Shown here in pieces: positions 41,678 to 64,000 of a stretch of 64,000 nt of DNA. A model generated the notes under the pieces. The model was not told where the DNA came from and ran no database searches. It saw only the letters and a list, made by a program, of their open reading frames with translations. Source of the DNA: Elusimicrobiota bacterium (GTDB lineage: Bacteria; Elusimicrobiota; Elusimicrobia; UBA1565; JACRDR01); NCBI GenBank assembly GCA_016194745.1, contig JACQBA010000013.1, positions 128,822 to 192,821 on the forward strand, written 5' to 3'. The position numbers were made by a program, and so were the translations under genes. Each line of letters opens with the position of its first letter. Positions within the stretch are counted from its first letter, which is position 1.

Positions 41678-42412
41678 TCAGGCCGCGGCGCCTTCCTTGA
41701 TGTAGAATTGCATCGTCGTGCCGCCGCAGTCGATGATGTCGCCGTCCTTGAGGACGACCTGGTCCGCCACGGTCGAGCCGTTGACCACGGGGTAGCCGGA
41801 CTGCACCGCCTTGAGGACGAATCCCTCGGGCTTTCGGTGGATCGACGCGGCGACTTCGGGGGCGGAGCCGAACAGCCCCGTGCCCTTGATCTGCACCTGG
41901 ACGCGGTCGGATTTTCCGATATAGGTGGACATGCCCTTGAGTTCGTACTCGGGATTGGACACCACGCCCTTGAGGATGCGCAGCCCGCCGACTTTCTCGG
42001 GCTGACCGGCTCCGGCCGAGGCGGTACCTGCCTTCGCCATCTCGGCCTGCTTCTCCGGCGACAGCATCATCGTCGCCTCGGCGGCGGGAGCCTTCTGCAC
42101 GGGCGCCGTCTCGGCGGCCGGCTTGTCCTCCATGAACACCAGGACGTGCTTGGTCGCCAGGCCGACCACGTCGTTGTGGTGCAGGCCCGCCTTCATGATC
42201 CGTTTTTCGTTGACGTACGTGCCGTTCGTCGACTCGAGGTCCTCGACGTAGAACGTGTCTCCCTGCAAGGAGATCTTGCAATGGTGCCCGGACACCGCCG
42301 GATTGTCGATCACGACGTCGTTGTCGGGCTTGCGCCCGATCGTGAACGAGGGCTTGTCCATGGCGTACTCTTTGATGACCGCGGCGTTGAACTTGAGCAG
42401 CAATTTGGGCAT
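41678..42412 (-). CDS. FHA domain-containing protein
   Basis: 244 aa. N-terminal FHA (FTIGRKPDNDVVIDNPAVSGHHCKISLQGDTFYVEDLESTNGTYVNEKRI) plus a second degenerate FHA-like C-terminal half. Confidence 0.8.
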   Translation of the reverse strand: MPKLLLKFNAAVIKEYAMDKPSFTIGRKPDNDVVIDNPAVSGHHCKISLQGDTFYVEDLESTNGTYVNEKRIMKAGLHHNDVVGLATKHVLVFMEDKPAAETAPVQKAPAAEATMMLSPEKQAEMAKAGTASAGAGQPEKVGGLRILKGVVSNPEYELKGMSTYIGKSDRVQVQIKGTGLFGSAPEVAASIHRKPEGFVLKAVQSGYPVVNGSTVADQVVLKDGDIIDCGGTTMQFYIKEGAAA

Positions 42413-42449
42413 CTCTCGTCTCCCTGGCTCGGTGCGGCCTAAGTTCCGT

Positions 42450-43262
42450 CTACGTCCCGAAAATCTTCCCCAACAATCCCTTCATTCCCGGCTTCTTCGC
42501 GGAAAATGCGGCGACGACCGTGATGTTGTCCACCCCTCCCGCGGCCCTCGCCGCGGCGATGAGGCTGTCGCACGCCGACAGAGCCGTCGGCGACGACGAA
42601 AGCGTCTTGGCGATCTCGGCCTCAGAGACCATTTTCGTGAGCCCGTCCGTGCATAGGAGCAGGACGTCGCCCGGCAGGACCGGATAGTCCTGCAGGTCGA
42701 CGACGACGTTCGGCTCGGTGCCCAGGGCGCGGGTCAAGATGTTCTGCATCGAGGACTTCTCCGCCTGCTCCGCCGTGATGAGGCCCCGCCGGACCTGGTC
42801 CGCGACGAGGGAATGGTCCTCCGTCAGCGCCTCCAGCGCTCCGCGCCGGAACAGGTACAGCCGGCTGTCCCCCACGTGGGCCACGGTCGCGGCGCCGTCG
42901 TCGGCCAAGACCGCGACGACCGTCGTGCCCATGCCGTGATCCTGGGGGATGACGCGGGCTTTCTCGAAGATCAAAGTGTTGGCGGTCTGGACGAAGTACT
43001 CGAGTTGCCGGGCTTTGACGGACTTCGACGCGTCCCCCCCTTCCGGGATCATCTGCTTGTCGCCCCCGATCATCTTCCGGGCGTAATCGAGGATCGTTTC
43101 CGTCGCCATGCGGCTCGCCACCTCTCCGGCGTTGTGGCCGCCCATGCCGTCGGCGACGACGAGGAGTCCCAGCCTCAGGTCCACCGCCAGGCTGTCCTCG
43201 TTGTTTTCACGGACACAGCCTGGGTCCGTTTTTCCGGCGATGTCCCAGGAAAGCTTGCTCAT
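42450..43262 (-). CDS. PP2C-family Ser/Thr protein phosphatase (Stp-like)
   Basis: Start at ATG 43262 (MSKLSWDIAGKTDPGCVRENNEDS); the ORF-track ORF extends to 43598. Motifs VADGMGGHNAGEVAS, DNITVVA. Start overlaps the kinase stop. Confidence 0.85.
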   Translation of the reverse strand: MSKLSWDIAGKTDPGCVRENNEDSLAVDLRLGLLVVADGMGGHNAGEVASRMATETILDYARKMIGGDKQMIPEGGDASKSVKARQLEYFVQTANTLIFEKARVIPQDHGMGTTVVAVLADDGAATVAHVGDSRLYLFRRGALEALTEDHSLVADQVRRGLITAEQAEKSSMQNILTRALGTEPNVVVDLQDYPVLPGDVLLLCTDGLTKMVSEAEIAKTLSSSPTALSACDSLIAAARAAGGVDNITVVAAFSAKKPGMKGLLGKIFGT

Positions 43263-46132: not shown

Positions 46133-46244
46133 TGCGATTGGACTGCGCCCAACAACTCAATTAGTCTAGCCCCACCGTCATTTTCTGTCAATGGGATTTC
46201 AGTTACAAGAATTCGCGCGCTAGTGTATCAGTTTTCCCGCGATT

Positions 46245-46289
46245 TTTCGCTTTTGGGGAAAAGAAAGGGGCCCCGCCGAAACGGAGCCC
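46245..46289 (-). terminator. rho-independent terminator downstream of the DUF2147-like gene (possibly bidirectional)
   Basis: Minus-strand RNA: GGGCUCCG-UUUCGG-CGGGGCCC (8-bp stem including one G-U pair) followed by CUUUCUUUUCCCC. It lies in the AT-richer spacer 46133..46315, which must also hold the promoter of the kinase-PP2C-FHA operon. Confidence 0.45.
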
Positions 46290-46315
46290 TGGCTTTCTTT
46301 AAGGAAAGGGACGAC

Positions 46316-46813
46316 TTACGGAATGCGCGTATATTCCTTAGACTTGCATTGGTCCCCAATGAGGAAGATGCTGATGCAGCCTTCGAGGCGCAGCTTCCCG
46401 TTCTCGAGATAAGCGCTGCCCTTGTACCACGAGTTCTCCTCCGACTTCATGACCTGCCCGCCCGTCCATTTCCCGGAACCCGCCGCGCGCATTCCGCGCA
46501 CGACCTGGGCGCCGACCCGCTGAAGCGCGGGATGGAGCACGTCCGGATTGGCGATCGTGTCGATCACGCCGCCGACCACTCCGCCCGTTTCCTCCAGCCG
46601 GATGATGTTGCCCGTCTCGTCCGACCGCCAGCGCCCGACGATCGAGGTTTCGGCGCCGGCTTGGACCTGCTGAAGCTCCGCTCGCTCGGACGCGAATCCT
46701 TGGACCGCGGGCGCGGCCTGCTCGTACGCCCGAATGATGCCGTTGAGTCCTTCCTCCGCCGACGCCGCCTGGACCGCCAGCGCCGACGCGAGAACCGCCA
46801 ATGCCATCTTCAT
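46316..46813 (-). CDS. hypothetical secreted protein, possibly DUF2147-like
   Basis: Start taken at MKMALAVLASALAVQAASAEE (signal peptide); ATG at 46813 or 46807. C-terminal WYKGSAYLENGKLRLEGCISIFLIGDQC resembles the DUF2147 signature. The upstream in-frame part of the ORF-track ORF was ignored. Confidence 0.45.
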   Translation of the reverse strand: MKMALAVLASALAVQAASAEEGLNGIIRAYEQAAPAVQGFASERAELQQVQAGAETSIVGRWRSDETGNIIRLEETGGVVGGVIDTIANPDVLHPALQRVGAQVVRGMRAAGSGKWTGGQVMKSEENSWYKGSAYLENGKLRLEGCISIFLIGDQCKSKEYTRIP

Positions 46814-47003
46814 GATCTCCTGCCCCCCGGATGAACGACATGACGAAGGAGATGTCGCAGCCCTCCTGCGATGTCTTGCGAAATGCTCCTTCCTACGAGA
46901 CCAGGATATCGCCAAGGTCGGGGCTCGCCCAGGCCGAAAGGACCCAGTCCCGCGCAGGGCTAAGGGAGGAGGATATTCGCGGGTGCTCTCGTCGAGGTCC
47001 GCG

Positions 47004-48488
47004 TCAGGCGCCGGCCTTGGCGGTGAAGCGGTCGGCGGCGGGGCTGTCCGCGCGCGCGAAGACGTCCTTAAGAAGGTCCGCAGGCTGCCGGTAGCCGCTC
47101 GAATGTACGCCGCTCCACCGGAGATCGAGTCCGGGGAACCGCTCTCCCACCCGCTTCAGAGTCCGCTCGTACACCATGACGTGGTGGTCCGCGGCGCCCG
47201 CGAGAAGGACCGCAAAGCCTCCGGGCGACAGCGCGCAGACGTAGTCCGACGAGCGAAGCGCCCCTCGCACCGCCGCGACGATCGCCCTAAGGTCCGCGTC
47301 GCCTGAGATGTGGAACACGGCGACGCTCGCGCTCGGCGTCCGCAGCGCCTCGACGCCATAAAGATCCGTCAAGTAGCCTTCCAGGGCGCGCGCGTCGCTG
47401 CCGATCGCCGGCCCGAGCAGGCCTCCGTCCGGCCGGCTGAAGGAGCGGCTGAGAAAGGCGGCGATGACGTGCTGGGTCACGCCCAAGATCGCGGCCGGGA
47501 GCGTGACGAGCGGCATGTGCGCGAAGCTCGAGGCGCCGACGGCCATCGCGACGCCGTGGTCCCGCATCCCGCTTGCGTAGACGAGGGCGATCGCGTCCTC
47601 GCGCCAAAGCCCGAAGTAGCGCGCCATGCGGATGCCGGCCCAAAAGCAGACCAGGTTGCAGAGGAAAGTCAGGATCAAGGCGGACACGAAGGCGTCGCCG
47701 GTGGCGGCCAGCTGGGCCTTCGCGCCGGCCGCCGAAATCAGCGCGACCGCGAGAAAGCCGAGCGTTCCGAGCGCCGAGAGAGCCGGCTCCCACCGCTGCG
47801 CAAGTCCCGGGCGCGCGTTCGCGGCCGCGCCGACGACGACGGGTATCGCGACGGCGAGGATCAGTTGGCGGGCCAGATCCCCCACCGGCACCCGCACCAT
47901 CGACGGTGCCGAGCCGATGATCAGATGGAGGTAGGCCGGGATCGTCAGCGCGGCCGCGCCCGCGCCGACGACGGCGAGCGCGAGCACCAAGGGAAGAAAG
48001 CCCCGATTGACTCGGACCCAGAACGAGGAGGAGACCGCCACGGGCATCACGGCCACAAAGACGAAGCCCATCTGCAGCTCGTGGTTCGATCGGCCCTCGA
48101 GAAAGGTCCTCGCGATCAGGCTCGCGATGAACGCGACGATGGGGATGACCGCGAACACGCCGCCCAAGGTGATCCAGCCCGCGCGGCTCCGCGACAGGAG
48201 GCCCTTCCACGACGCCGCCTCGCAGCGAACGCTCGCCGACAGCACGACCAGCGCCAGCGCGAGTGTCGGGAGATCGATCGCCCAATGGACGCCGGGAATC
48301 TCGAGGAAGCGCAGGCGCTTGAGCGCCATGCCGTGCTGCGGCCGCAGAAGTCCCCAGGCGATGACGCCGATCACGATCTCGTTGACATGCTCCTTCGTCC
48401 ACGCGTTGAATCGTACGAGCCTGCCTAGGATCGCGCGATCGGAGACTGCGCCGGATGCGGTCGTTTCGACGGCCATGGTCGACTCCAC
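47004..48488 (-). CDS. bile acid:sodium symporter (BASS/SBF-like) family membrane transporter with C-terminal cytoplasmic degenerate GGDEF-like domain
   Basis: 494 aa. About 10 TM helices with the duplicated-repeat pattern typical of the BASS/ACR3 fold. The C-terminal ~140 aa contain RSSDYVCALSPGGFAVLLAG, where GGDEF is replaced by SPGGF. The overlapping same-strand ORF 47287..48402 is Arg-rich junk. Confidence 0.55.
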   Translation of the reverse strand: MESTMAVETTASGAVSDRAILGRLVRFNAWTKEHVNEIVIGVIAWGLLRPQHGMALKRLRFLEIPGVHWAIDLPTLALALVVLSASVRCEAASWKGLLSRSRAGWITLGGVFAVIPIVAFIASLIARTFLEGRSNHELQMGFVFVAVMPVAVSSSFWVRVNRGFLPLVLALAVVGAGAAALTIPAYLHLIIGSAPSMVRVPVGDLARQLILAVAIPVVVGAAANARPGLAQRWEPALSALGTLGFLAVALISAAGAKAQLAATGDAFVSALILTFLCNLVCFWAGIRMARYFGLWREDAIALVYASGMRDHGVAMAVGASSFAHMPLVTLPAAILGVTQHVIAAFLSRSFSRPDGGLLGPAIGSDARALEGYLTDLYGVEALRTPSASVAVFHISGDADLRAIVAAVRGALRSSDYVCALSPGGFAVLLAGAADHHVMVYERTLKRVGERFPGLDLRWSGVHSSGYRQPADLLKDVFARADSPAADRFTAKAGA

Positions 48489-48578
48489 TTCGGAAGTCGA
48501 GTAAGTCTAACCCTCGATGGCCGGGATGTCAATATTGAGGGTCTTCCGGAACGACGCGAGCGACGATATGAGGCGGGA

Positions 48579-49172
48579 TTACTTCCGGCGCGCCCGGCGT
48601 CCCAGAAGCTTCCAGCCGGCGGGCAGCGCGGCGGCGGACAAGCAGGACTTGAACAGGTCGCCCGTGATGAACGGGAACAGGCCGAAGGAAAGGAGCTTGC
48701 CGGCCGGCACGAAGCGCGCGAGGCCCGCGAGGCCGAAAGCGAAGATCACCGCGCTGCCGAGCAGCATCATGGTCGCGGCGCTGAACGGCGTGCGGCCCCA
48801 GCCCCGCTCCGCCAATCGGCCGACGCACCACGCGGCCGGAATGAATCCGAGAATGTATCCCCCGGTCGGCCCGAGCAGGACGGCGGCGCCGGCGAATCCC
48901 CCGGCGAACACGGGCAGACCCATGCAGCCTTCCATCACGTACATCGCGACCGACAGCGTGCCCCAGCGGCTTCCCAAGAGCGCGCCCGAGTACAAGACGC
49001 CGAGCGTCTGACCCGTGATCGGGACCGGAGTGAACGGAAGAACGATCTGGATCTGCGCGAGGAGCCCGATGAGGAGGCTCAGGCAGACGGCCTCCACGAA
49101 ATAGACCGTACGGGACTGCTCCGGCAGCATCGCTTCAAAAAAGGTGGGGATCGTCGCGGCTTGGCTTGTCAT
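48579..49172 (-). CDS. bioY: biotin transporter BioY
   Basis: 197 aa, about 6 TM segments. Conserved BioY stretch ITGQTLGVLYSGALLG...GPTGGYILGF. Confidence 0.8.
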   Translation of the reverse strand: MTSQAATIPTFFEAMLPEQSRTVYFVEAVCLSLLIGLLAQIQIVLPFTPVPITGQTLGVLYSGALLGSRWGTLSVAMYVMEGCMGLPVFAGGFAGAAVLLGPTGGYILGFIPAAWCVGRLAERGWGRTPFSAATMMLLGSAVIFAFGLAGLARFVPAGKLLSFGLFPFITGDLFKSCLSAAALPAGWKLLGRRARRK

Positions 49173-49239
49173 AGGCCTTCTGGCCCCATTATCGCAAATT
49201 TCCGGGATTTCGTGTCGACAATTTTTGGGACCTTCGGAC

Positions 49240-52200
49240 CTAACGACCGGCGTCGTCCGGCTCGCCGGCGCGCGGCAAAACCCGGCGCGACACGATCTTG
49301 ATGCCTGTCTTGGAAGAGGCCTTCGGCGCGCGCGCGCGGTGCTCTGCGCCGGAGGCGGCCACGGGCTGAGCGCCCTTCTGCGTCGCGGCGTTCTCCAGTC
49401 TTTTGACCTTGAAGTGAGCCCAGAATGTGCCCATGAGGAATACCGCAGAGACGCCGGCTCCCGCCGTGAACTGGAGGGCGCTGATCGCGCCGTTGCTCAA
49501 CAAGAATCCGAAAACCGGGATGCTCGAGGCGCTTCCGTAGAGGCTTCCCAACAGCAGCATCCGCTTTTTCTCAATGAGCGACTGCGGTATGGCGGCCAGG
49601 TTGCCGGAAGCACCCAAGAGCTGACTGCGGATGTCGATCCCCTCGATGGTTTCTCGATGGAAATACATCTGGCCGAAAAGCGCGGGGAGCCCGTAAAACA
49701 TCATCACGATCCGGTTCACCGTGACGATATTGTCCCAGCGCAGCGCCTTCCGCCAGCGCGAGACCTCCGAATCTCCGGTGCGGCTCCAGAGCATCGCCCC
49801 GCCCACCGCCAGTGCGGCGAGTCCGGGCAGAAACGAAGCGTTTCCATCCACGAGGAACGCAAGGCCTTGACCGAGCGCAGCGAAGCCCGTCAACTCCGTC
49901 GCGCGCACGATCTGATTCCAACGGCGCTCGCTCATCCATCCCCTTTCCTTTAAGAAGTAAGCCGCGACGTTTGTCACCTGCAGCCCGACCACCGGCACGG
50001 CCGCGACCATCGCCCAGGCCGGCATGATGAGCGCCGCGCCGGCCGGCGCCATCCACTGGCCGAGCCAGAGCGTTCCCACGATGAAGGAGGCCGCGACGAC
50101 AGCGGAGGCCTGCATCACCGGGCCGGCGACGGAAAGCTTGTTGATGAGGCGATCCACCCAGTTGTGCTCCTCTATCACCTTCGGCTTCTCCCTCGCGTAG
50201 TCGTGGAGCACGTGGAGGTTCACGAAATTGCCGATCACGTACGCCGCCCACGGGATCGCGGCGAGTTTCGTCACGGCGGCGGCCGTTCCCTGGTACAGCA
50301 GGTCGACGTTCGTTAGGAACTGAGGGATGTGGATTCCCATGAACGCCAGCGTTCCGCCCGCCAAGAGGATGACCGCAGCGGCGCGCCACGTCCGGATGCC
50401 AGCGGGCGCCGCGGGACGGATGCCGCCGGGCCGCGACGGCGGCTCGGGCGTGCGGCGGATGTCGTCCTTCGGCGCGGCCGGCTCCGGCTTGTCCTTCGCC
50501 GGCGTCTCGTCGAATCGCGCCCCCTTCAAACTGCGCGCGGGACCGTAGACGCGGTACGCGAGCTCGGCCAGGTCCGGCCTAGAGCGCAGGAGCGAATCGA
50601 GAGTCGAGATGCGCCGCCCCCAGTCCGACAGGATGTCGAAGTAGGCGGACGTCAGCTGCGCGAAGAGCTCATGCTCGTCCTGTTTCGCGTAGGTCCCGAG
50701 CATGTCCTTGGCCGGGATCTCCTCGGTCATCTTGAACGCGGTCTTGACCTCGTGGTCGGAGACGGGGTCCCGCGACGCGTCCTTCGCGAGCCGGTCCAGC
50801 CGAGCGAGCCGGCCGCCAGTCCGCAGGCGATCGGCGACGCCGGAGAACCGCTCCGACCACGTCGGCCGGCGCTGGCCGAAGTCCCTCTTGCCGGCCCACT
50901 CCAGAATCGGCGTCATGCCGTGCATGTGGACCATGTGTCCCAATTCGTGCACGAAGACCTCGTTCGTCTTGTAGCCCTCGTGCGTCTTCATCAGCGTCCT
51001 CTCGCTGACGACGAAGGCGTATGAGCCGTCCTCGGCCTTAAATTGGAAGGCGACCCCATCCAGGTCCCGATACAGGCGGCCGTCCTTGGTATGGACGGGA
51101 AGGTTGCGCGCGATGGTGAGATCGGTCAGACTCCACCGCTCCGGAAACACGATCGCCGTGACCCGATTCACGACCATATTCTTCAAAATGAGCGGGTCCA
51201 CCCGACGCAGCACCTCCTGCATCAGGAACCGAGCCTGCAGTAGCGCTTCCTCTTTGACGCCCCACTCCTTGCCCGTGATCCTGTCCTGAAGGATGGCGAT
51301 GTTAGCGTCGCGGTCGTACTCGGCGGCGGCGCGGCGCTCCCCGACCCATTCGCGGAGGAACGCCCCGTACTGCACCCCAACATCGCGCCGCGCGGAGCCG
51401 AGAAGCTCCATGACCCCGTCGTAGATCCTAGTCTTCGCCGGATCATTGCGGAGTTCCCTTAAGAACCGGGTTCCTACGTCGACCGGCGCCTGCTCGAGCA
51501 GGCGCACGCGCATCATCGCGGCATCCAGGATTTCGTTGCGCTCCATGATCGCGTTCGTCGGACGCTCCGCAGGGCGGTTCCACCAGATCCACATCGACTG
51601 CAGCGGCTCGGCGATCGACAGCCTTCCGTCTCGGTCCCTGACGAACTCCATCTCGTACCCTCGGCGATCGTGACGGGAGTTAGGATAGACAGAGGAATCG
51701 CCGCGCAGCCGCCCTAGGAACTCTTCCAGGTCCCTAAACGACGCGTCGGTGACGGGCCATGTCCGATCGCCGACGACCTTATCGGTCACCAGGAAGAGCC
51801 TCCCTTCCGGCGACTCCCATACGCCATGAAACTCAGGCGAAAGCCCCTCGGCCGCAATCGTCTCCGCGGTCCTCGCCTTCCGGGCGAGAGTCTGTTCCCA
51901 GCCCTCCGTCCCGAGAAAGTCCTTGTAGAACGGATGGAGCTCGACGGTCCGCCCGTCGCGAAGAACGCCTTCCAGGACGCTCCAGTCCCACCGGCTCTCG
52001 TAGCCCGTCCTCAACGTGACGCCCGTCATCCGTTCGACGGGCGCTTTCGGGACATCGTCGAACGTACGGAAAGTCCTAACGTCGCGCCGCGGACGAGGAC
52101 CGCCGCCGGTCGGACCTTCCTCCGGACGCGGCAGCATCGCCGGCAGGATGATCGACGCCGTCACGAGCCCGCCTGAAACCGTCGAATCGATGAGAGTGAG

Positions 52201-55200
52201 CGCGCCGGCCGCGCCTAGAACCAAGGCAATCCCTACGCCTCGCGATACGCGGCCGAACGTCGCGCGAGATTGCGCCGGGCGGTTCTGCGCCCCGTTCACG
52301 TACTCTGAAAGCTGAGCATGAGTGAGTCCAGTCGCCTCGGGCTTAGCCGAGACGGCCTTGTCGACCCAGACCTCGAAGCGGGCGCGATCAAGCCCGGCTA
52401 CGCCGCTGTCCCGGAGCCAATTGGCCGTCTGAAGCAGGAACCGCGCGGGAGGCTCATAGTGGCCGGACCGGTCGTTAAAGACCACGCCCTCGCCGCCCAC
52501 GACAAACTCCCCCACCCCGGCGACTTTCCGGCCGCCGGAGAGCGAGCTGTGCTTCCATTCGCGCCGGTCCGGCACGAGCCGCGCGATCCAGCGCCCGATC
52601 GCGGTCCGAGACGCCGGCGCAGGCGCGTTCATCGCCACCGCGTAGAGGCCGAGCGGATGATCGGCGCTCGGCACGAGGACGAACAGGTAGCGGCCCCTCG
52701 GGAGCTTTTGGCCCGCCGCATCGACGGGATCGCCGAACCGGTCGAAGGAGACCCGGTACGCCTTTCGCTGCGCGTCGCCCAAGCCGTATTCCCTGCCCGC
52801 GAAGAGCTTCTTGTGCATTAAATAGATGCCCTGATTTCCTTCCATGGCCCGCCACTCGAGGCGCCCGAATTCCGGCGCGCTCCGCCGCTTGCCGAACACG
52901 GGGGCGCCGGGCGCCGCCGCAGGCGCGCGGACCGCGCCCGAGGCGGACGGTTCCGAAATCCGCCGCGAGGAGAGGAGGCTCCGCACGCCTCGGACGACGG
53001 CTACGACGGCGATCGTGGCGAGCGCGGCCGCGCCGAAGTCGACCAGAAGCGACGCGTCGATGAGATGCCGGACGCCGAACTCCGCCGCATGGGCGCCGCC
53101 GATCATCTTCGGGCCAAGGAGTCCCCCGAAGGCGCCCCACGCCGCCAAGGTCGCCATGCCGCGCCACCTGCCTCCGGCGGGGCGAGGCGGCTCCGGCGCG
53201 GGCCGGCTCGTCGCCGGCGCCGAGCTCTCCGGGGCTACATGCTCCTCGGGATGCGCCATATGCACGCGACCCAGCGCCACCATGCGCTCGTAGGCCCGGC
53301 GCAGCGGCATGGGATCGACGCCTAGGAGCTTCGCGTACTCATAGATGTGCCGCGTGAAGATCGCGTTCTGCTCCGCCGGAATTTCGCTGCGATGGGGAGG
53401 CGCTTCGGTCGAGTCGAAGTCGAACGCGACCCACAGGTTCATGTTGTCGCGGCTTCGCACCGTGGAGATCCCCTCGCGGCCGGTATAGAGGCCCAGGCGT
53501 GTATTGATGATGTGGGAGAAGACGGCGTACTGAGCCGCCGACCGGAGCAGCAGCCGGTTGGCCGCGGCCTTGAACTTGGGCGAGCCGTGGTCGCCGGAAT
53601 ACTCGAGACCCATCCGGCGGAAATACGGCGCGAGGAGCTCCGGCTCGCGCAGAATCTCCGCGAGCCTTGTGGGCAAGAGCGCGCTGTAGGCCGTCAGCGT
53701 ATGCGTATCGACGATCCGGCGCGGGACAGAACCGATATGCTCCAGCGCGGCGCCGTGTCGTACGATCACGACGCCCTTCGGCGCGGCGACGCCCTTGATC
53801 TGGAATCGCTCGCGCCAAGCCCTGCCGGCGTCGGTCTCGTGCTCCACGAAAACGGGCACGCCGATCGGCTTGAAGGCGGCGGCGGGATTGATGAAAACAT
53901 CCGAATTGCCGCCGAGTTTCCGCGCCGCGCGGAGCGCCCAATCCCCGCTGCGCTCCGCCACCTGGTACGTCGCCTCCATCTCGGAGAGCTTGAGCTCCGG
54001 CGCGTGGCTCTCCTCCTGGCCGCCTCGGAACGCCTGCGTGTTGATCCTCGCGCTGGCGTCGTAGCGGAAGCCGAGCACGAGGCCATCGCGGCGCGCCTTA
54101 TCCTCCTCCGCTTTGACTCCGACTCCCTTGACGACCGTATGCCACGGCGCCGGAGGCCCGCTCGCCTTGTCTTCGGAATGCAGGGAGCGGTTGTGAGTCC
54201 TGCTGCCGACATACGGGCTAGGGTCCTGTAGCGGCACGAGGAACACGTCTTTGACGTCCGTGTTGCCCGCCGCCAGATACTCCGAGAGCGCCTTGGGATC
54301 GGCCCGCCAGAGAATCTCTCCCTTTCTACCGAGCTGATCGGAGAGCGGGATCACGTGACCGTTGCGGATCATCTCGGCAAGCCGCACCTCGTCGAAGATC
54401 CGGTCGATCCGCGCCGGGACCTTCACCGAGCCCGGGATCTCGGTCCCGATGCCCGCGTCCGGGTGGGTCGTGTCCTTGAGTGGCGGGAGGTTCGGGAACT
54501 CCGCGTCGATCGCGAGCTGCGTCAGGCGCAACAAGTTCTCGCCCGGCCGCCCCGTCATGAGCGCACGCACGTCCGACTCGAACCGGGAGGATCCCGCCAT
54601 CAATCCCGGGGCCGCCAAGACGACGTCGAGAAGCGCCGGCTCGTTCGCGGCGAGCTCTCGCGCGGCCGCGAAGGCGCGGACAGTCGCCTCGAATTGCGCT
54701 TCGCTGAGCCCGGATTTCGAAAAGCGCTCGGCGAACGCCTCGACCGACGGTTCCGCGGCGCGAGTCCACCTGTAGCGCCAACCCATATCGTCGTCCCGCA
54801 CGACCACGTCTCCGCCTACTTCGAGCCCCACCGTCGCCGAGCGAGTACGGTGGTTCGAGGGGAGCGTCTGTACGAGCTGGAGGTCCCTGAATACCCGGAG
54901 GCGCTGAGCCCGATCGAGGACGTAGACGTCACCGCGCGGATCGGAGGCGATCGAGAGAATCCGGTCGAAATGGGCGTCGTCTAGACCCGTCTCTCCGACC
55001 TTGCCGAATACCGCCACGCGCTTCAACCGGGCCTCGCGTCCGCTCTCAAGTTCGAAGACCTGGACCATGTGAGTCTCCGGCATCATCACATGGATCCGAT
55101 GCTTGCCGTCGACCACCGCGTCCGTGATCAACCCGGTCCGCTCGTTTCCGAAATCCGGCGAGGCCGCACCGATCCTCTTGAACTCCCCGCCGGACGCGGC

Positions 55201-58200
55201 GCCATCGTGGATCACCACGCTTCCGGCGCGGGAAACGACGACGATCCGTCCCTGGGAGTCGACGAACCCGGTCCGCCAGTTGCTCCGCTGGAAGTCCTTG
55301 ATCACACCCGCCGGCTTTAGCTCCGCGTCGAAGACGTCGATTTGGGCGTAATAGTTGTTCGGCACGAACAGCCGGCCGCGGCCGTCGACGAAGCCGTGGT
55401 CGCAGTGGAGGCACTCGAGCAGCGGAAGTTTCGACTTGCCGTCGGCTTCGAAGACGCGCACGCCCTTCAGCTCGGCGTCGTACCAGAACGACCGGCCCGC
55501 GCGATCCGTGGCGATGTGCTTCAGGCTCGAAAGCTTGTCGACGCGCTCGACCGGTTCGAGGCGGGACGCGCTCGCTGTCCCCTCAGGACCCTTGAGCGCC
55601 GCGCGAAGCTCGGAGGCGCGGACATCCGGGGGCTTAGCTTGGACGGTCGTCGTTTCGCGCGGTGCGACTGAGACTTCGCGATCGGCGTCTGCGCGATCCT
55701 GCGCCGCACGAGGACGAGCGGCCAGGAACAAGAATCCGCTGCGGCGGTCCACGCCCAAGAAACGTTGCCGCGAGGAACCGCGCATGCCCGGCCGCGAGAA
55801 GATCGCGGCGCCGGAGAAAGCAGTCTCCTTCGTTTCGAATCTGCCCTTGAACTGCTCCGGGCCGGCGCCGTCGCTGAACGACCAGTAGACCCCGTTGCGC
55901 GTGAGTTGGGCGTCGACCGCGGCGACGAGCTGGTCATGATCCCCTACCGGTAGCCGAGCGAACATGAGATCGGCCTTGGGCACGAGCGCTCCGGCCTCGG
56001 CAGTATGATGGACGCCGACGCCTCGCGGCGGGAAGCTCGTCATCGCTCGGTCCGGGATCACGGACACTCGGCGACGCGCGTCCCTGTAGAGAGTCCACGG
56101 ATTGAGGTACTTGAGTCCCCCGCGCAGCAGCACGTCCGGATTTCGCGCCAGCATCTCCCCCCACACGCCCACTAGGAAGCGCGGGAAGCTGGTGACCTGA
56201 CCATACGCTCCGCCCCATCCCTGGTTGCCGGGCTCGCTGACGACGATTCGGATGTCCGGACGCGCCATCAGCGGGATCGTCCACTCGTAATGGTCGTTGC
56301 CGGTGCCCGTCGCGTGGTATACCCCGTTTTGCGGGAGGAGACTGCGGTCCCGGAATATATCGTAGAGGACGCGCACGACGCCCTTGCCGGACAGGATATG
56401 CGCGTTGAAGCGCTCGACGTGGGCGTCAACGGGCCGCTGCTGCGCGTTCCCGGACTCGCTTCGTCCCGCGCGCTCGGCGCCGCGGCCGAACGCGTAGGAG
56501 AGGAGCCGCCTCGCCGCCCAGACCGCGCCGAGGGCCGCCAGGCCGAGCCCGCCGCTGACGAACCAGTCAGCGGCCACCATGGCCGGCGTCGACTCGAACC
56601 CGGCCTGCGCGACGCCGATGAATTCCCTCGCGAAGGTGAGCGCGCCGCCCGCGACGCCGAGCCACGCGAGCGCGTTCTTCGCCCGCACCGCGCGGTGCCA
56701 AACGTCCTTGTCGGTCCGAGCGGGGATATTGTCCGCGTCGAGCATGAAGTCGTCGTACATCTTGCCTTCGCCGAGGCCGTTCAGGCGGTTGATGCGGCGG
56801 CTTGCATTGCTCCACTCGGAGCTCAAGTCGACGCGGCCGCCGAAACGCGTCGCCATGAACTGCTCCGCCATTCCGAGCGGCCTCGAGAAGCGGGCTTCGA
56901 TCGAGTTGAGCAGGGCCTCGGCCGCGGGGCCCGTTCGCTGACGGAAGTAGAGATTGAGAAGCGTCGCCGGCTTGCCCTTCTCATTGAGAGCGAAGCCGCC
57001 GAAGGCGAAGCCGATCGCTCGCGTGCGGCCGGTGCCCGGGATCGGTTCCTCGACCAGGAACACAAAGGAGAGCGGGTCCCGCCACAGCATCGGCACGTGC
57101 GTCCTGCCGTCCGCCTTCCCGCTCGAGAAGCAGCAGGTCACAGCGTCGCCGAAGCGCATGAGCGGCAGGAGGTCCGCGGCCTTGTCCAAGTAGCGCAGAG
57201 TGACGGTCTTCGGCATCGTCGCCTTGCCGCCCGCGCGCGCCTTCTGGAGCTCGGCGAGCTGGCGGAACGCGTCGTTGAGCTCCCGCTCGACGCCGATCAG
57301 CCGCTCGCGCGCGAACGCGGGCACGCCCCGCTCGAACATCGTGGAGAGCAGGTATCCCAGCAAGGTCCCTGGCTCCACGGCGTTGTTCTTGCGTCCGATC
57401 TCGTCGTGGCGTTCCTCGACCCTGGCTCGGTCCTGGCCGGCGCGTTGGCGCACCTCGCGAGCGATCGCGGCGCGCTCGGAGCTGAGGCGGGCCAGGAGCG
57501 CCGCGGCGGGAGTCGCGTTGCGGTCGGACTCGAGCACGGATTGGAGCGGAAGATCGGGCAGCCCTTTCTTCACCCCGGCCTGCCAACGGGATTCCAGCCG
57601 GCGGACCGCCTGAGCGGCGAGGTCGGGGTGCTCTTCCTCGGCTCGGCGGAGCGCCGCGGCGAGCGTGGCCCCGTCCTTCGCGCGCTCGATCGCCTCCGCG
57701 GCCGACGCGTGAGCGGCGGCGCGCAGCGCCTCGACATAGGCGACGGACTTGAGCAGCGCCCCCACGGCGCCGCGGCCCAGGACCTCCCCGATCTGCTCTT
57801 CCAAGAGCCGGAGGGCTTCCGCGTCCGAGACGTCGATGCGGACCTGCCATTGCCGCTCCTCTCCCAGAGGGAACCGACCCTCGCGCAGGCGGTTGACGAT
57901 CTCCTTGGCCTTTTCGGACGAGAGACCTTGGGCCGTCAATGCGGCCTCGAGTTCACGCGCGGGACCCTCGACCCTCCAGCCCCGGCTCGCGTTGTTCAAC
58001 CGCTCCTGGAACTCGCCGAACGTGAAGTCGTGCGACAGAAACTCCACTTGGCCGCCCTTATAAAGGAAGTAGGCGACCGATTCCGCTCGGGAGGTCATGA
58101 GCCTGCTCAGCAGAGCGTCCGGGTCGCGAATGCCGGAGAGCTCCCGCCCGATCTCCGCCGCGCGGTCCAGGACGGCGGCGGGCTCTCGGCCGATGTCGAG

Positions 58201-61200
58201 CGCCGCGCCGGAGGCCGACTTCCAGGGGGCCGTTTGCAGCAGCTCGAGCATCGCCTTGTCCGGCAGGACCCGGTACCGCTCCACGACGAGCCTCAGGAGC
58301 GCGAGGTCCTGCTCCTCGAGCTTTACCTTCAGCGCATCCCTATCGCGAGAAGACAGCTCCCCGGCCTGGGCGACCACCCGGCCGCGCCGCGCGGCGAGGT
58401 ACGCGGAGAGTCCCTTCTCGACGTAGCCCGCTTGCTCGAGATTGCGGAGCAGGAGCCAGGCGACGTGGCGCGGCATCTCGGCGGAACCGAACCCGCCTTC
58501 GCCCGATGCCGCGCGGGCGAGCGCCGGAGCAGCTCCCGTCCGCGTCAGCGCATACAGGATCCGGTCGAGCGCCGCGCGCGATCCGCCCGCTGCCGCCGCG
58601 TCTGCGGCCTCGATCATCGACTCGATCGACTGCTGAGTCCCCAAGCGGACTTGGGCGTTGGTCGCCTCCTTAAGACGCCGATCGGATTGAGGCGATTTCT
58701 CGGCCAGCGCGCCGGCACGGACTTCCGCCGCGACGCGTCCCGCCAGGCTGGAGCGGTCGCTTCCGGGCGCGAGACTGCGGCCCGAGCGGAGCAGCATCCC
58801 CGCCCACGCGCGATCCGCGGCCGGAAGGGTCCGAAGCAGGGCTTCGTGCCGCTCCAGCGGGAGCCACAAGCCCAGCGCCCGGACGCCCCTCTCGTCGCGC
58901 GCGGCCGCCGACGCGGCGAAGCGCGCGGCGATCTCTCCGGTCCCGACGGCCGTCCGATCGGGCGAGAACCGGCGGAAGGCGCTCGACGCCCGCCACGCCT
59001 CTGCGGAGAGGCGCGCGGCGGCCGCTTCGTCCTTTGGATCCACCTGCGCGCCGCGCCGATACGGTTCCGGCTTTGCCGAGAGAGCCGCCTGCTCGTAGCG
59101 GGCGATCCTGGCGAAGTTCTTCGCCTGGCTTGGAGAGGTCATGGTGCGCCCGGCCGCGGCGATCGCGCGTTCGAAATAGGGCGCAGGGTCCAAGCCGGCC
59201 CGCATCGAGTAATCAGCGACGCGGAAGTAGGAGGCGGCGGCGTCGTAGTACTTGCTGTTCTTGGACCCATGGTCCGTATTCGGCATCAGCCCGGCGACCG
59301 AGCGGAAGGCGTCCTCGGCGCGAGCAAGCCAGTAACCCCTAGGCCGGCGGGTAGCCGCCTCGATCGCCGCCGCGGCCTGGGCGAGGAGCGGCGCGGCGTT
59401 GCGCCCCGCTTTCTGCTCGACCAGCGCCAATGCGGCGAGAGCCGCGGAGTGGTGCTCGACGGAACCTCTCTCGCGCTCCGGAATCTCCGCGGCCGACCTG
59501 ACGACGCCCGCGCGGATCTCCAGTTCGACGACGGTGCCGAAGGCGCGGTCCTTGACGATCGAATGGTGCTGGTTCTGCCACGCGCGCGCGACGCCCAGCA
59601 CGCGCGCGGCGTCGAGGCCCAAGTCCAGGTAGGCCGCCGCGAGATGCGCGTAGCTCTGGGTCCGGCCCTCGGGCGTCGGCCCGTATCCCGCTTGGTCCGA
59701 GGCGACCAAAGCCTCCGCCTCCCGGAGCGTCGCCGCCGGATCGAGCCCCTCCCTCTTTTCGGCGGCGGCCAGGCGGATCAGCGAGTCCAGCCGGTCCCGG
59801 AAGGACAGTCGCTGGATCGTACGGCGCGCCGCGTCGAAGTTGCCCGCGGCGAGCTCCGCCTCGAAGAAATCCTTGAAGACCGAGGAACGGCCCCATCCGT
59901 TCGACAGCTCACGGGGAGCCCGCTCCCGGAGCCGCTCCATCGCCTCGGCCGCGGCGAAACGGACCAAAATCGGATCGCCCCCCTCGAGTTCGGCGGCTCG
60001 GCGGTCCGGCGTCTCCGAAGGCCTCGCCGCCGACTCCGCGCCTCGAGCCATCTCCGGTCGGGCCGCCGGCCGCAGCACCCGCCTGGCCGCGGCGACAAGG
60101 CCGTAGACCGCGGCGGCCGCGACGACCCCGACCGCGAACGTCCCGGTCCAGTCGGCCGCCATCCCGCTAAAGACCTGGGCGCCGGCCGAGTCGGGCGTGA
60201 GCGCGCGGGCCAAGACCGCGAAAGCCGCGAGGACGCCCGCGCCGCGGCCCAGCTTTTGCAGCAGCGCTCCCAGCGTGCTGCCCCGCATGGCCGCGACCTG
60301 GGTGGCGAGGTCCCTCCGGGAACGGACCAGGAGTTCCACGGCGTCCTCAGGCTTCAAGTCCGAAAGAAGGTGGCGCGCGCTCCCCAACGCCTTGCTCAGC
60401 ACGTCGAATTCATCGCGGAGCGTCCCCTTGGAGGCCTCGACAAGACCGAGGAGGTTCATCAGCTTCTGCGCCGACGCGTCCTTCCCCAGGGCGATGGCCC
60501 GTACCTGTCTGATTGGGATCGAAACGTGGCGCGAACTCATCCTCGCCAGGATCGCGGCAGCTTCCGAATCGCTCGGCACTCCGATCCTCGTCTGCGCCAG
60601 CAGGCGGGCCGGGGCCGGAAGGCCGTTCAGAAGATCCTTGTAGGCGTAGAGCGCCAGGCGCAGCAGCGCGTCGCGGTCCGGCGCCGACAATCGTCCTACG
60701 AGCCCCAGGTCGATGAGGCTTATGCGTCCGTTCTTGTCGATGATCGCGTTGCCGCCGTGAAGGTCCGCGTGGAACACGCCGTCGAGCAGCACCTCCGCCA
60801 GGAACTCCCGCGCCAGGGCGCGCCGCACCTCGGCCGGTTCGTGCCCGAGCGCGCGGACCGCGGCCTCGTTGCCGACCACCGTCCCGTGGACGAGCTCCTC
60901 GACCATCACCAGGTTCCCGCCGAGGATCCTCGCCTGCGGGACGTAGAATTCGAAACTGCGTCGCGGCGACGCCGGGAGTCCCAGCGCCGCGAACACGGCC
61001 TGCGCGGCCTGGTCGAATCCGAGGCCCTCCTCTGCCTGCCGGGCGGCCACGTGGGCGCCGATCTCGATCTGATTGGCCTGTTCCTGCTTGAAGTCCAGCT
61101 CCTGCACGATCATCCTGCGGACGCGCTCCACGGTGTCGTCCGGGAGGCGGATCTTCTGGGATCGCAAGTACGCGTCCAAGGACTCGATGACCCCGCGGAG

Positions 61201-64000: not shown

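What the first reader, a model, noticed from the sequence alone, without database searches (positions are those of the whole stretch)
60463..61575. ABC1/UbiB-family atypical kinase domain embedded in the giant protein
Motifs GSASIKVVYEA (nucleotide-binding Lys region), FHADLHGGN (catalytic loop) and IDLGLVGRL (DFG-equivalent) match the ADCK/UbiB/ABC1 atypical kinase family. These kinases are normally stand-alone proteins involved in quinone/lipid homeostasis. Here the domain sits ~780 aa from the visible N-terminus of a >4900-aa membrane protein. That is an unusual context for this fold.
Basis: partly seen in the sequence, partly recalled or inferred. Interest (0 to 1): 0.55.

Follow-up and report, generated by a model that had tools for sequence, protein, structure and literature searches.

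The report
UbiB-type kinase-like module inside giant protein
A complete, apparently active UbiB/ABC1-type ATPase module, normally a free-standing protein of about 550 amino acids, sits inside a membrane protein of at least 4,919 amino acids in an uncultured Elusimicrobiota bacterium, and the same fusion recurs in a small clade of relatives, so its conserved partner domains may hint at what this poorly understood enzyme family does.

Summary
On the minus strand, window 60640-61422 matches Pfam ABC1 (PF03109) at 115 bits, E=3e-33. All UbiB hallmark residues are present: the KxGQ motif, the P-loop Ala, the beta3 Lys, the HxDxxxxN catalytic loop and the DxG Asp. An AlphaFold model (pLDDT 79) superposes best on human COQ8A. 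The domain lies in one ORF (49240 to beyond 63999, at least 4,919 aa) with GC3 near 0.85 throughout, and the N-terminus is outside the window. A two-helix membrane hairpin follows the domain, as in free-standing bacterial UbiB, so a whole UbiB-like unit was captured.

This is not a one-off. Relatives occur in Elusimicrobiota and candidate division FCPU426: 6,992 aa (complete), 2,235 aa (complete) and several truncated ones. They share a colinear block of about 1,300 aa (upstream region, ABC1, anchor). In relatives that extend further upstream, an intact M48 peptidase lies about 1,300 aa before the ABC1 domain. Their ABC1 domains form a separate clade (100/100 bootstrap) from the 500-700 aa stand-alone proteins. 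After the anchor, the giants share no detectable similarity.

The module is not a UbiB orthologue (148 bits against a cut-off of 487). The most likely function is a membrane-surface ATPase on the cytoplasmic face, but this is inferred. I rate it a new variant of a known kind, of moderate interest.

The parts
49240..63999 (-). Giant ORF of at least 4,919 aa. The stop codon is at 49240-49242 and the frame is open at the window end, so the N-terminus is outside the window.
   Evidence: GC3 is about 0.85 in all 250-codon blocks. The 3' 6 kb is identical in two independent assemblies.
61555..63999 (-). Conserved upstream block (aa 1-815) of unknown fold, inherited together with the ABC1 domain in all clade members.
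   Evidence: BLASTP: window aa 2-1304 aligns with L030 aa 2583-3888 at 36% identity over 1,342 aa, 838 bits, and with L029 at 39%. Alignments A3 and A4. No Pfam hit, no PDB profile hit and no hit in the 5.8-billion-protein database.
60265..61554 (-). UbiB/ABC1-type atypical kinase-like module (aa 816-1245): KxGQ helical extension, kinase-like core and C-terminal helices.
   Evidence: Pfam core at 60640-61422. TIGR01982 alignment starts at aa 791. AlphaFold model and Foldseek match to COQ8A.
61480..61494 (-). IKFGQ, the KxGQ motif. K837 and Q840 correspond to COQ8A K276 and Q279.
61288..61314 (-). GSASIKVVY, the A-rich nucleotide-binding loop. A898 corresponds to COQ8A A339. The clade has G/S at the first two Ala positions and V..Y in place of the canonical Q.H.
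61231..61257 (-). IAKIKRPDV, the beta3 strand. The invariant catalytic Lys K917 corresponds to COQ8A K358.
61069..61104 (-). QELDFKQEQANQ, the conserved ELD(F/Y)xxE motif carrying the invariant Glu residues.
60748..60774 (-). FHADLHGGN, the catalytic loop. D1079 and N1084 correspond to COQ8A D488 and N493. This protein has Leu where relatives have Pro.
60688..60714 (-). IDLGLVGRL, the DFG-equivalent. D1097 corresponds to COQ8A D507, the metal/ATP-binding Asp.
   Evidence: D507N abolishes ATP binding in COQ8A (10.1101/149823).
60085..60243 (-). Membrane hairpin 1 (aa 1253-1305), directly after the ABC1 module. It has Arg/Lys-rich flanks and an acidic loop.
   Evidence: Hydropathy and charge. 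It is equivalent to the C-terminal two-helix anchor of stand-alone relatives and of E. coli UbiB (10.1101/149823).
56512..56673 (-). Membrane hairpin 2 (aa 2443-2496).
55711..56388 (-). Class I (Rossmann) methyltransferase-like module (aa 2538-2763).
   Evidence: Homologues are stand-alone proteins of about 280 aa. AlphaFold pLDDT 66. Foldseek gives SAM-dependent methyltransferases (E 2e-6, TM about 0.5).
53305..55392 (-). NHL-like beta-propeller (aa about 2870-3090) plus an unknown conserved domain (aa about 3190-3565).
   Evidence: The HMMER scan of 1.84 billion representatives gave P0043 at 199 bits spanning both domains. None of the ten hits scanned has a Pfam match covering this region; only P0053 matches Pfam at all, elsewhere in the protein. 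The PDB profile search found NHL repeats only.
52993..53157 (-). Membrane hairpin 3 (aa 3615-3669).
52129..52239 (-). Membrane hairpin 4 (aa 3921-3957).
50638..50949 (-). HELGHMVHMH followed about 90 aa later by EHELFAQLTSAYF, a possible zincin metallopeptidase motif pair.
   Evidence: Sequence only. Pfam and PDB are silent. The resemblance to MtfA/M90 is from memory, not tested.
49417..50382 (-). C-terminal polytopic membrane domain (aa 4540-4861, about 6-8 hydrophobic segments).

Best explanation
The feature is a genuine UbiB/ABC1-family atypical kinase-like module with a complete catalytic set. It includes the family-specific KxGQ extension that in COQ8A folds over the active site. It is followed by a two-helix membrane anchor like that of free-standing bacterial UbiB proteins. 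An entire UbiB-like gene was therefore incorporated as an internal module of a lineage-specific giant membrane protein in Elusimicrobiota.

The module is inherited as one unit with at least 800 aa (about 1,300 aa in relatives) of conserved upstream sequence of unknown fold. In relatives whose sequence reaches that far, an intact soluble M48 zinc peptidase lies further upstream. The parts after the anchor differ completely between lineages.

Inferred mechanism: the module sits on the cytoplasmic face of the membrane. There it hydrolyses ATP and uses that cycle to bind, extract or hand over a hydrophobic membrane ligand, or to gate the neighbouring modules. It probably does not phosphorylate proteins. 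It is not the ubiquinone-pathway UbiB.

Shown here: family membership, fold, intact catalytic residues, recurrence and clade structure (confidence about 0.95). Inferred: topology, ATPase rather than kinase activity, and any ligand. The stated confidence of 0.55 is for the whole statement including the mechanism.
For: - Family and fold: Pfam ABC1 at 115 bits against a cut-off of 22.9. AlphaFold pLDDT 79, pTM 0.80, best PDB matches COQ8A 7UDQ/5I35/4PED, then Rv3197 and MSMEG_1954.
- Residues: K837/Q840 (KxGQ), A898, K917, D1079/N1084 and D1097 map to COQ8A K276/Q279, A339, K358, D488/N493 and D507. Apart from the KxGQ lysine (QLAQ in L031 and L005), they are invariant across six clade members that share only 28-41% identity, which argues for selection on catalysis.
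- Anchor: a hydrophobic hairpin follows the domain in the window and in P0001, and a cluster of hydrophobic segments follows it in L030. Stand-alone relatives end in the same kind of hairpin. E. coli UbiB has C-terminal TM domains (10.1101/149823).
- Topology: the flanks of the four hairpins carry about 30 Arg/Lys against about 3 in the loops, so the positive-inside rule places the soluble modules in the cytoplasm.
- Recurrence: a colinear block of 1,342 aa at 36% identity with the complete 6,992-aa L030 protein; 39% with L029; 25-28% with L031 and L005. The contig of the FCPU426 relative L006 is open at both ends.
- Clade: ABC1 domains of these proteins group at 100/100 bootstrap, apart from 33 stand-alone proteins.
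- M48: present with HExxH, ExxxD and GTHPQ motifs in L030, L031 and L005.
- ATPase model: COQ8 and UbiB show conserved ATPase activity, the KxGQ Gln positions a water molecule, and COQ8 extracts CoQ intermediates from membranes (10.1101/149823; 10.64898/2026.02.03.703536).
Against: - No biochemistry exists for any clade member.
- The P-loop differs from the canonical one (GSASIKVVY against AxASIAQVH), with unknown effect. A P-loop Ala-to-Gly change at a different position raises autophosphorylation in COQ8A.
- The KxGQ Lys is replaced in L031 and L005 (QLAQ).
- The complete short relative L031 starts with what looks like a cleavable Sec signal peptide (MLKTPLAVLTLVSFLVTGIVGPMPAYA|QE). That would put its ABC1 domain outside the cytoplasm, away from ATP.
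- L029 and L031 have no anchor after the domain.
- Topology rests on hydropathy and charge counting only. The first helix of hairpin 1 is short (15 residues) and contains an Arg.
- No ligand can be named, and the window holds no quinone-pathway genes.
Confidence: 0.55

Rival explanations
1. The module is a true protein kinase. It phosphorylates the giant protein itself or partner proteins, as reported for some plant ABC1K proteins, and so regulates the other modules.
For: The full kinase catalytic set is present. AtABC1K6 is reported as a Mn2+-dependent kinase (PMC8956952, listed). The clade-specific P-loop has a Gly (GSAS), and P-loop Ala-to-Gly raises cis-autophosphorylation in COQ8A. A Ser/Thr kinase, a PP2C phosphatase and an FHA protein lie 3-7 kb downstream.
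Against: The KxGQ extension, which in COQ8A occludes the substrate cleft and favours ATPase activity, is conserved. The Gly is at the A337-equivalent position, not A339. The neighbouring signalling genes are not conserved next to relatives.
Confidence: 0.2
2. The clade proteins are exported or delivered conflict proteins, such as multi-module effectors or toxins. The UbiB-like module then acts on the membrane or lipids of another cell, where ATP is available, and the M48 peptidase processes the protein.
For: L031 has a signal-peptide-like N-terminus. L031 lies beside an integrase and a TrwC relaxase, and L029 beside a Dcm methylase, a SMODS cyclase and a ThiF-like protein. A conserved core with lineage-specific C-terminal modules resembles polymorphic toxin logic. 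Elusimicrobia are listed among phyla rich in huge proteins that are linked to host association (PMC11573180).
Against: The charge distribution around the window protein's hairpins points to cytoplasmic modules. There are no PADLOC hits. The window neighbourhood is ordinary chromosome with no mobile-element genes. Only two anecdotal neighbourhoods support the idea. The window protein's N-terminus is unseen.
Confidence: 0.12
3. It is simply the organism's ubiquinone or menaquinone-pathway UbiB that happens to be fused to other genes and keeps its canonical role.
For: TIGR01982 UbiB is the best NCBIfam hit. A methyltransferase-like module lies in the same protein, and quinone pathways use methyltransferases.
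Against: The score of 148 bits is far below the equivalog cut-off of 487.55. The clade is separate from stand-alone proteins at 100/100 bootstrap and shares only 20-26% identity with them. The methyltransferase module is not shared with L030. The window shows 2-oxoacid:ferredoxin oxidoreductase and no quinone genes.
Confidence: 0.08
4. The giant ORF is an artefact, caused by mis-assembly, a chimeric contig, or a long open frame produced by high GC content, and the ABC1 domain is really a normal short gene.
For: The window has 66% GC and carries long spurious antisense ORFs, for example 56290-62151 on the plus strand, 1,953 aa. The protein has no self-hit in the protein database.
Against: GC3 is uniform at about 0.85 in the coding frame over all 4,919 codons. 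The colinear 1,342-aa alignment crosses both edges of the ABC1 domain in an independent genome of 37% GC, where the ORF is 6,992 aa with a defined start. Independent assemblies are identical over the 3' 6 kb.
Confidence: 0.02

Closest known systems
Bacterial UbiB / eukaryotic COQ8A (ADCK3), Pfam PF03109 ABC1 family
   Same: It shares the protein-kinase-like fold with the KxGQ N-terminal extension, an Ala-containing P-loop, the beta3 Lys, the HxDxxxxN loop and the DxG Asp. Like bacterial UbiB, it has a two-helix membrane anchor after the domain.
   Different: It is embedded at least 815 aa (probably more than 2,000 aa) from the N-terminus of a protein of at least 4,919 aa, rather than being a protein of about 550 aa. 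It forms a separate clade and scores far below the UbiB equivalog cut-off. The P-loop has V..Y in place of Q.H and G/S in place of two Ala. It is coupled to a conserved unknown region and, in relatives, an M48 peptidase.
Mycobacterial ABC1 proteins Rv3197 / MSMEG_1954 (PDB 5YJZ, 7CY2)
   Same: These are the best sequence-profile matches in the PDB (71.7 and 65.8 bits) and are among the top fold matches.
   Different: They are stand-alone proteins of about 440-450 aa with no giant context. Identity to the modelled segment is only about 16-18%.
Giant multi-transmembrane, multi-enzyme proteins of Omnitrophota ('Archaeovorins', bioRxiv 10.1101/2023.11.21.568195)
   Same: It is a very long protein in which clusters of transmembrane helices alternate with divergent enzyme-like modules, most of them invisible to HMM libraries. 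One window domain is shared with a 2,695-aa protein that carries HATPase_c and PPDK_N, domain types listed for those giants.
   Different: It comes from a different phylum. It is about ten times shorter than the proteins of over 30,000 aa in that study. No SecA DEAD domain was detected. Neither ABC1/UbiB nor M48 is mentioned in the later Omnitrophota preprint, and ABC1/UbiB is not mentioned in the first (M48 was not searched there).
BepA-type soluble M48 peptidases with helical extensions
   Same: Relatives L030, L031 and L005 carry a soluble M48 domain with HExxH, ExxxD and GTHPQ motifs followed by a long region. L031 has a signal-like N-terminus.
   Different: The comparison with BepA rests on memory. 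The M48 part is not in the window. The following region has no detectable TPR or other known repeat and ends in an ABC1 domain.

Membership tests
UbiB/ABC1/ADCK atypical kinase family (Pfam PF03109) | Profile HMM match above the curated gathering score | tested here: met
   115.3 bits against a cut-off of 22.9, E=3.2e-33, covering profile positions 2-233 of 244.
UbiB/ABC1/ADCK atypical kinase family (Pfam PF03109) | KxGQ motif in an N-terminal helical extension | tested here: met
   IKFGQ: K837 and Q840 align with COQ8A K276 and Q279. The model shows four helices before the first beta strand.
UbiB/ABC1/ADCK atypical kinase family (Pfam PF03109) | Ala-rich nucleotide-binding loop in place of the Gly-rich loop | tested here: met
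   GSASIKVVY keeps the A339-equivalent Ala (A898) and the invariant Ser. It is a clade-specific variant: G/S at the first two positions, and the Q and H of the canonical QVH are replaced.
UbiB/ABC1/ADCK atypical kinase family (Pfam PF03109) | Catalytic Lys, Glu, HxD Asp, Asn and DxG Asp | tested here: met
   K917, E967/E973, D1079, N1084 and D1097 lie in columns that are invariant across the 35-sequence alignment and the 6-member clade alignment.
UbiB/ABC1/ADCK atypical kinase family (Pfam PF03109) | COQ8A-like three-dimensional fold | tested here: met
   AlphaFold pLDDT 79, pTM 0.80. The top 12 Foldseek PDB hits are all COQ8A, Rv3197 or MSMEG_1954, with E from 1.5e-12 to 2e-8. RIO and Hanks-type kinases score E of about 1e-4 or weaker.
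UbiB/ABC1/ADCK atypical kinase family (Pfam PF03109) | ATPase activity stimulated by membranes or phenolic lipids | not testable with these tools
   This needs biochemistry. The literature basis is 10.1101/149823.
UbiB orthologue of the ubiquinone pathway (NCBIfam TIGR01982 / NF003404 equivalogs) | Score at or above the equivalog cut-off | tested here: not met
   148.2 bits against 487.55, and 98.9 bits against 667.
UbiB orthologue of the ubiquinone pathway (NCBIfam TIGR01982 / NF003404 equivalogs) | Stand-alone protein of about 500-700 aa with a C-terminal anchor, in a quinone-pathway context | tested here: not met
   The anchor is present, but the protein is at least 4,919 aa. No quinone genes were found among the 20 annotated window genes. 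The rest of the genome was not available.
Omnitrophota-type giant membrane proteins (Archaeovorins) | Numerous transmembrane regions alternating with divergent enzyme domains | tested here: met
   Four hairpins plus a C-terminal polytopic domain, with ABC1, methyltransferase-like, propeller and zincin-like modules.
Omnitrophota-type giant membrane proteins (Archaeovorins) | Divergent SecA DEAD helicase domain; length over 30,000 aa | tested here: not met
   No SecA hit in Pfam at E<=5 on any segment. The visible length is 4,919 aa and the largest relative is 6,992 aa. The unseen N-terminus could not be checked.
Known anti-phage defence proteins (PADLOC-DB 2.0) | Match to any defence-system model | tested here: not met
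   No families at E<=0.1.
Polymorphic / multi-effector toxins | N-terminal secretion or trafficking domain, releasing peptidase, variable C-terminal modules | tested here: inconclusive
   The C-terminal parts are variable and relatives carry an M48 peptidase. The window protein's N-terminus is outside the window, no known toxin or secretion domain was detected, and the hairpin charges suggest cytoplasmic modules.

The most novel reading that the evidence does not exclude
The conserved M48-peptidase, ~1,300-aa unknown region and UbiB-like unit may be a previously unrecognised machine in which a UbiB-type ATPase works on something other than quinone intermediates. One possibility is that it extracts or inserts hydrophobic segments or lipids for an attached protease. 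Another is that it acts as an exported, mobile-element-associated effector that attacks the isoprenoid lipids of another cell. In that case the giant forms would be lineage-specific expansions that bolt further enzyme modules onto this core through membrane hairpins.
Probability: 0.12. Interest if true: 0.8.

Novelty: new variant of a known kind. Interest (0 to 1): 0.5.

Why it matters
UbiB/ABC1 proteins are ancient and widespread and are linked to human disease through COQ8A and COQ8B. Outside coenzyme Q biosynthesis their function is still largely unknown, and they are almost always single-domain proteins, which gives few clues from fusion partners. This clade provides a conserved fusion of an intact UbiB-type module to a soluble M48 metallopeptidase and about 1,300 aa of uncharacterised sequence, in anaerobic Elusimicrobiota where no ubiquinone role is evident. 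That is a 'Rosetta-stone' lead for non-quinone functions of the family. It also extends the pattern of giant proteins built from enzyme modules separated by transmembrane segments from Omnitrophota to Elusimicrobiota, at a size (5,000-7,000 aa) that is more tractable for experiments. The caveat is that everything beyond domain identity is inference from uncultured genomes.

Tried and rejected
- A whole-protein search of the 5.8-billion-protein database timed out.
- Searches with the upstream 800 aa and with the C-terminal 970 aa found nothing, not even the protein itself. The giant is therefore not in that database, and I could not build alignments acceptable to the structure predictor for those regions.
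- The first genome scan, with the N-terminal 400 aa, found nothing.
- Pfam at E<=5 on ten segments found only ABC1. NCBIfam found only UbiB, below cut-off. PADLOC found nothing.
- PDB sequence and profile searches of the upstream block, the HExxH region, the 3080-3620 region and the 1880-2450 region gave nothing significant. An ankyrin-like hit at E=1.3 was rejected as noise.
- Self-BLAST found no internal repeats, and relaxed BLAST found no similarity to L030 beyond the shared block.
- No tRNA or Rfam features are present in the window, and there are no tRNAs next to the relatives.
- The AFDB fold library was unavailable.
- I considered and rejected the plus-strand 1,953-aa ORF at 56290-62151 as a high-GC antisense artefact.
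- I could not recover the N-terminus. BioY look-ups returned only short Logan contigs, although the source is a 386,545-bp NCBI contig.
Full report
**Observation**

They lie in one very long ORF, 49240-63912 from the first GTG. Its frame stays open to the last base of the window, so at least 4,919 codons are visible and the N-terminus is outside the window. I number residues from window base 63999.

The ORF is real coding sequence. GC at third codon positions is 0.80-0.93 in every block of 250 codons, while second positions stay at 0.37-0.61. The long antisense ORF at 56290-62151 is the usual high-GC artefact. Two independent Logan assemblies are 100% identical to window 44700-55315, which covers the last 6 kb of the gene. 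Exact look-ups of ten neighbouring proteins show that the window comes from an NCBI Elusimicrobia/Elusimicrobiota MAG, on a contig of 386,545 bp.

**Identity of the domain**

Pfam finds exactly one domain in the 4,919 aa. It is ABC1 (PF03109) at aa 860-1120, with 108.5 bits on the whole protein and 115.3 bits (E=3.2e-33) on the isolated segment, against a gathering score of 22.9.

An AlphaFold model of aa 780-1250, built with 34 homologues, has pLDDT 79 and pTM 0.80. Its twelve best PDB matches are all UbiB-family structures:
- COQ8A 7UDQ, 5I35 and 4PED (E about 1e-12, target TM-score 0.75);
- then Rv3197 and MSMEG_1954.
RIO and Hanks-type kinases follow seven or more orders of magnitude behind.

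A profile of the clade aligned to COQ8A gives this residue map:

| Window residue | Motif | COQ8A equivalent |
|---|---|---|
| K837, Q840 | IKFGQ (KxGQ motif) | K276, Q279 |
| A898 | GSASIKVVY (P-loop) | A339 |
| K917 | IAKIKRPDV (beta3) | K358 |
| D1079, N1084 | FHADLHGGN (catalytic loop) | D488, N493 |
| D1097 | IDLG (DFG-equivalent) | D507 |

**The module brings its own anchor**

About 155 residues after the DxG Asp there are two hydrophobic segments, aa 1253-1267 and 1284-1305, separated by an acidic loop and flanked by Arg/Lys. The stand-alone homologues recovered here end in the same kind of two-helix hairpin. E. coli UbiB is described as having C-terminal TM domains (10.1101/149823). 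What is embedded is therefore a whole UbiB-like unit, not just a kinase fold.

**Is the context unusual?**

Yes. Of the 42 best hits in the 5.8-billion-protein database, 41 are complete proteins of 502-668 aa. The exception, P0001, is a contig-truncated Elusimicrobia protein that also has ABC1 followed by a hairpin. In the genome scan, all 21 loci outside the clade encode proteins of 509-702 aa.

**It recurs**

Scans seeded with clade-specific peptides found the following relatives.

| Locus | Source | Length | Notes |
|---|---|---|---|
| L004 / L030 | Elusimicrobia bacterium RIFCSPLOWO2_02_FULL_39_32, 37% GC | 6,992 aa, complete | in-frame stop upstream of the start; ABC1 at aa about 3,460 |
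| L031 | metagenome contig | 2,235 aa, complete | |
| L005 | Ca. Elulimicrobium | at least 2,178 aa | 73% identical to L031 |
| L028 / L029 | metagenome contigs | at least 1,692 aa | open at the contig start |
| L006 | candidate division FCPU426 | at least 1,612 aa | a single reading frame spans the whole 4.8-kb contig and is open at both ends |

Sources for the lower rows are.

Window aa 2-1304 align colinearly with L030 aa 2583-3888, at 36% identity over 1,342 aa and 838 bits. They align with L029 at 39%, and with L031 and L005 at 25-28%. The conserved unit is thus the whole visible upstream region, the ABC1 module and the anchor.

Where sequence reaches further upstream (L030, L031, L005), a soluble M48 peptidase with intact HExxH, ExxxD and GTHPQ motifs lies about 1,300 aa before the ABC1 domain. 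In the window that position falls beyond base 64000.

After the anchor, the window protein and L030 share no detectable similarity, even at E=10. A neighbour-joining tree places the clade's ABC1 domains together in 100 of 100 bootstraps, apart from 33 stand-alone proteins. Most catalytic residues are invariant across clade members that are only 28-41% identical. The exception is the KxGQ Lys, which is replaced in L031 and L005 (QLAQ).

**The rest of the giant protein**

Pfam, NCBIfam and PADLOC are silent on the remaining 4,400 aa or so. Hydropathy shows four hairpins and a C-terminal polytopic domain. L030 has a comparable pattern of TM clusters between soluble stretches.

A full HMMER scan with aa 2490-3620 found three sub-domains with relatives.
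- A module of about 230 aa has stand-alone relatives of about 280 aa. Its model (pLDDT 66) matches class I SAM methyltransferases.
- An NHL-like propeller.
- An unknown domain of about 375 aa that co-occurs with the propeller in P0043. It also occurs in a 2,695-aa protein carrying HATPase_c and PPDK_N, domain types listed for Omnitrophota giants.

An HExxH motif with a downstream EHELFAQLTSAYF lies near the C-terminus. The resemblance to MtfA-type zincins is from memory only.

The upstream conserved block has no match in Pfam, the PDB or the protein database. I could not model it because locus-derived homologues are not accepted by the predictor.

**Surroundings**

Immediately downstream on the same strand are BioY and an SBF-family transporter. 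These are followed by a CHASE2 Ser/Thr kinase, a PP2C phosphatase, an FHA protein, a TPR protein and 2-oxoacid:ferredoxin oxidoreductase. Further away are citrate synthase, succinyl-CoA synthetase, M16 peptidases, histidine ammonia-lyase and others. This is ordinary chromosome, with no mobile-element, tRNA or Rfam features and no quinone-pathway genes.

**Mechanism**

Shown: a UbiB-family fold with a complete and conserved catalytic set and a membrane anchor.

Inferred topology: the flanks of all four hairpins are Arg/Lys-rich (about 30 positive charges) and the loops are not (about 3). The positive-inside rule therefore places the soluble modules, including ABC1, in the cytoplasm.

Inferred activity: in COQ8 and UbiB, the KxGQ extension and its Gln favour ATP hydrolysis. 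Activity is stimulated by membranes and phenolic lipids, and COQ8 extracts CoQ intermediates from membranes in an ATP-gated manner (10.1101/149823; 10.64898/2026.02.03.703536). By analogy, I think the module most likely acts as a membrane-surface ATPase that handles a hydrophobic ligand or gates neighbouring modules.

It is not the pathway UbiB, because TIGR01982 scores 148 bits against a cut-off of 487.55.

**Open problems**

- The clade P-loop differs from the canonical one, with unknown effect.
- L031 begins with a convincing Sec-type signal peptide, which conflicts with an ATP-dependent cytoplasmic role for that short form.
- L031 sits beside an integrase and a TrwC relaxase. L029 sits beside a Dcm methylase, a SMODS cyclase and a ThiF-like protein. 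This keeps an effector or conflict-system reading alive, at low probability.

**Comparison and novelty**

The domain is a member of the ABC1/UbiB family; all testable defining features are met. The architecture is what is new. Full-text searches found no paper combining UbiB with Elusimicrobia. Three papers on giant proteins do not mention ABC1 or UbiB. One of them does list Elusimicrobia among the phyla prone to huge proteins.

The overall layout, with TM clusters alternating with divergent enzyme modules, resembles the Omnitrophota giants, but no SecA DEAD domain was detected and the protein is an order of magnitude shorter. I classify the finding as a new variant of a known kind, with moderate interest (0.5). 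Domain identity is certain and the fusion is conserved and unreported in what I searched, but function remains inferred.

Noticed in passing
window 55711-56388 (-): A module of the giant protein (aa 2538-2763) has stand-alone relatives of about 280 aa, most of them with hydrophobic N-termini. It carries the motifs HVxGPGxNxxEW..RPDxK..VSE and ADL..R.P. Its AlphaFold model (pLDDT 66) matches class I SAM-dependent methyltransferases. No Pfam family covers it or its relatives.
   Followed up: partly
window 53305-55392 (-): An NHL-like propeller and an unknown domain of about 375 aa form a unit that is also seen in P0043 (1,024 aa, 199 bits). The unknown domain also occurs in P0053 (2,695 aa, with HATPase_c, PPDK_N and PEP-utilizers), a domain set reminiscent of Omnitrophota giant proteins.
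   Followed up: partly
window 50638-50949 (-): HELGHMVHMH is followed about 90 residues later by EHELFAQLTSAYF. This looks like a zincin metallopeptidase motif pair, possibly MtfA/M90-like (from memory). Pfam and the PDB are silent, and no homologues were found in the protein database.
   Followed up: partly
L031 849-7556 (+) and flanks: This complete 2,235-aa relative (M48, unknown region, ABC1) starts with a Sec-type signal peptide (MLKTPLAVLTLVSFLVTGIVGPMPAYA|QE). It lies next to a phage-type integrase, a DUF234 ATPase and a TrwC relaxase. An exported UbiB-like ATPase would be hard to explain.
   Followed up: partly
L029 6229-11400: The relative of at least 1,692 aa is followed by an HTH-Dcm cytosine methylase, a SMODS nucleotide cyclase and a ThiF-like protein. 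Together these look like a restriction-modification plus CBASS-type defence island.
   Followed up: no
L031 C-terminus (aa about 2170-2235) and L005 C-terminus: The two relatives share a C-terminal tail, GGIDL(T/N)...(I)xF/L..DP..L..L...G..P.I..I.P, of unknown meaning.
   Followed up: no
window 41678-46132 (-) and 17133-19241 (-): A Ser/Thr signalling cluster lies 3-7 kb downstream of the giant gene: a CHASE2-domain Ser/Thr kinase (957 aa), a PP2C phosphatase and an FHA protein. A second CHASE2 protein lies further away.
   Followed up: no
window 56290-62151 (+): A 1,953-aa ORF runs antisense to the giant gene, across the ABC1 region. It is a by-product of 66% GC and carries no coding signal.
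   Followed up: yes
window 49240-63999 (-): The giant protein gave no self-hit in the 5.8-billion-protein database with any of three segments, although its neighbours are all present as NCBI proteins (MBI35496xx). It may be unannotated, or marked as a pseudogene in the source record, or left out of the database.
   Followed up: no
L030 2255-23233 (+): The complete 6,992-aa relative also carries weak matches to a cyclic-nucleotide-binding domain (aa about 5,480) and to a DEDDh exonuclease C-terminal-like region (aa about 6,220); both score just below the Pfam cut-offs. A second HExxH motif lies at aa 1563.
   Followed up: no
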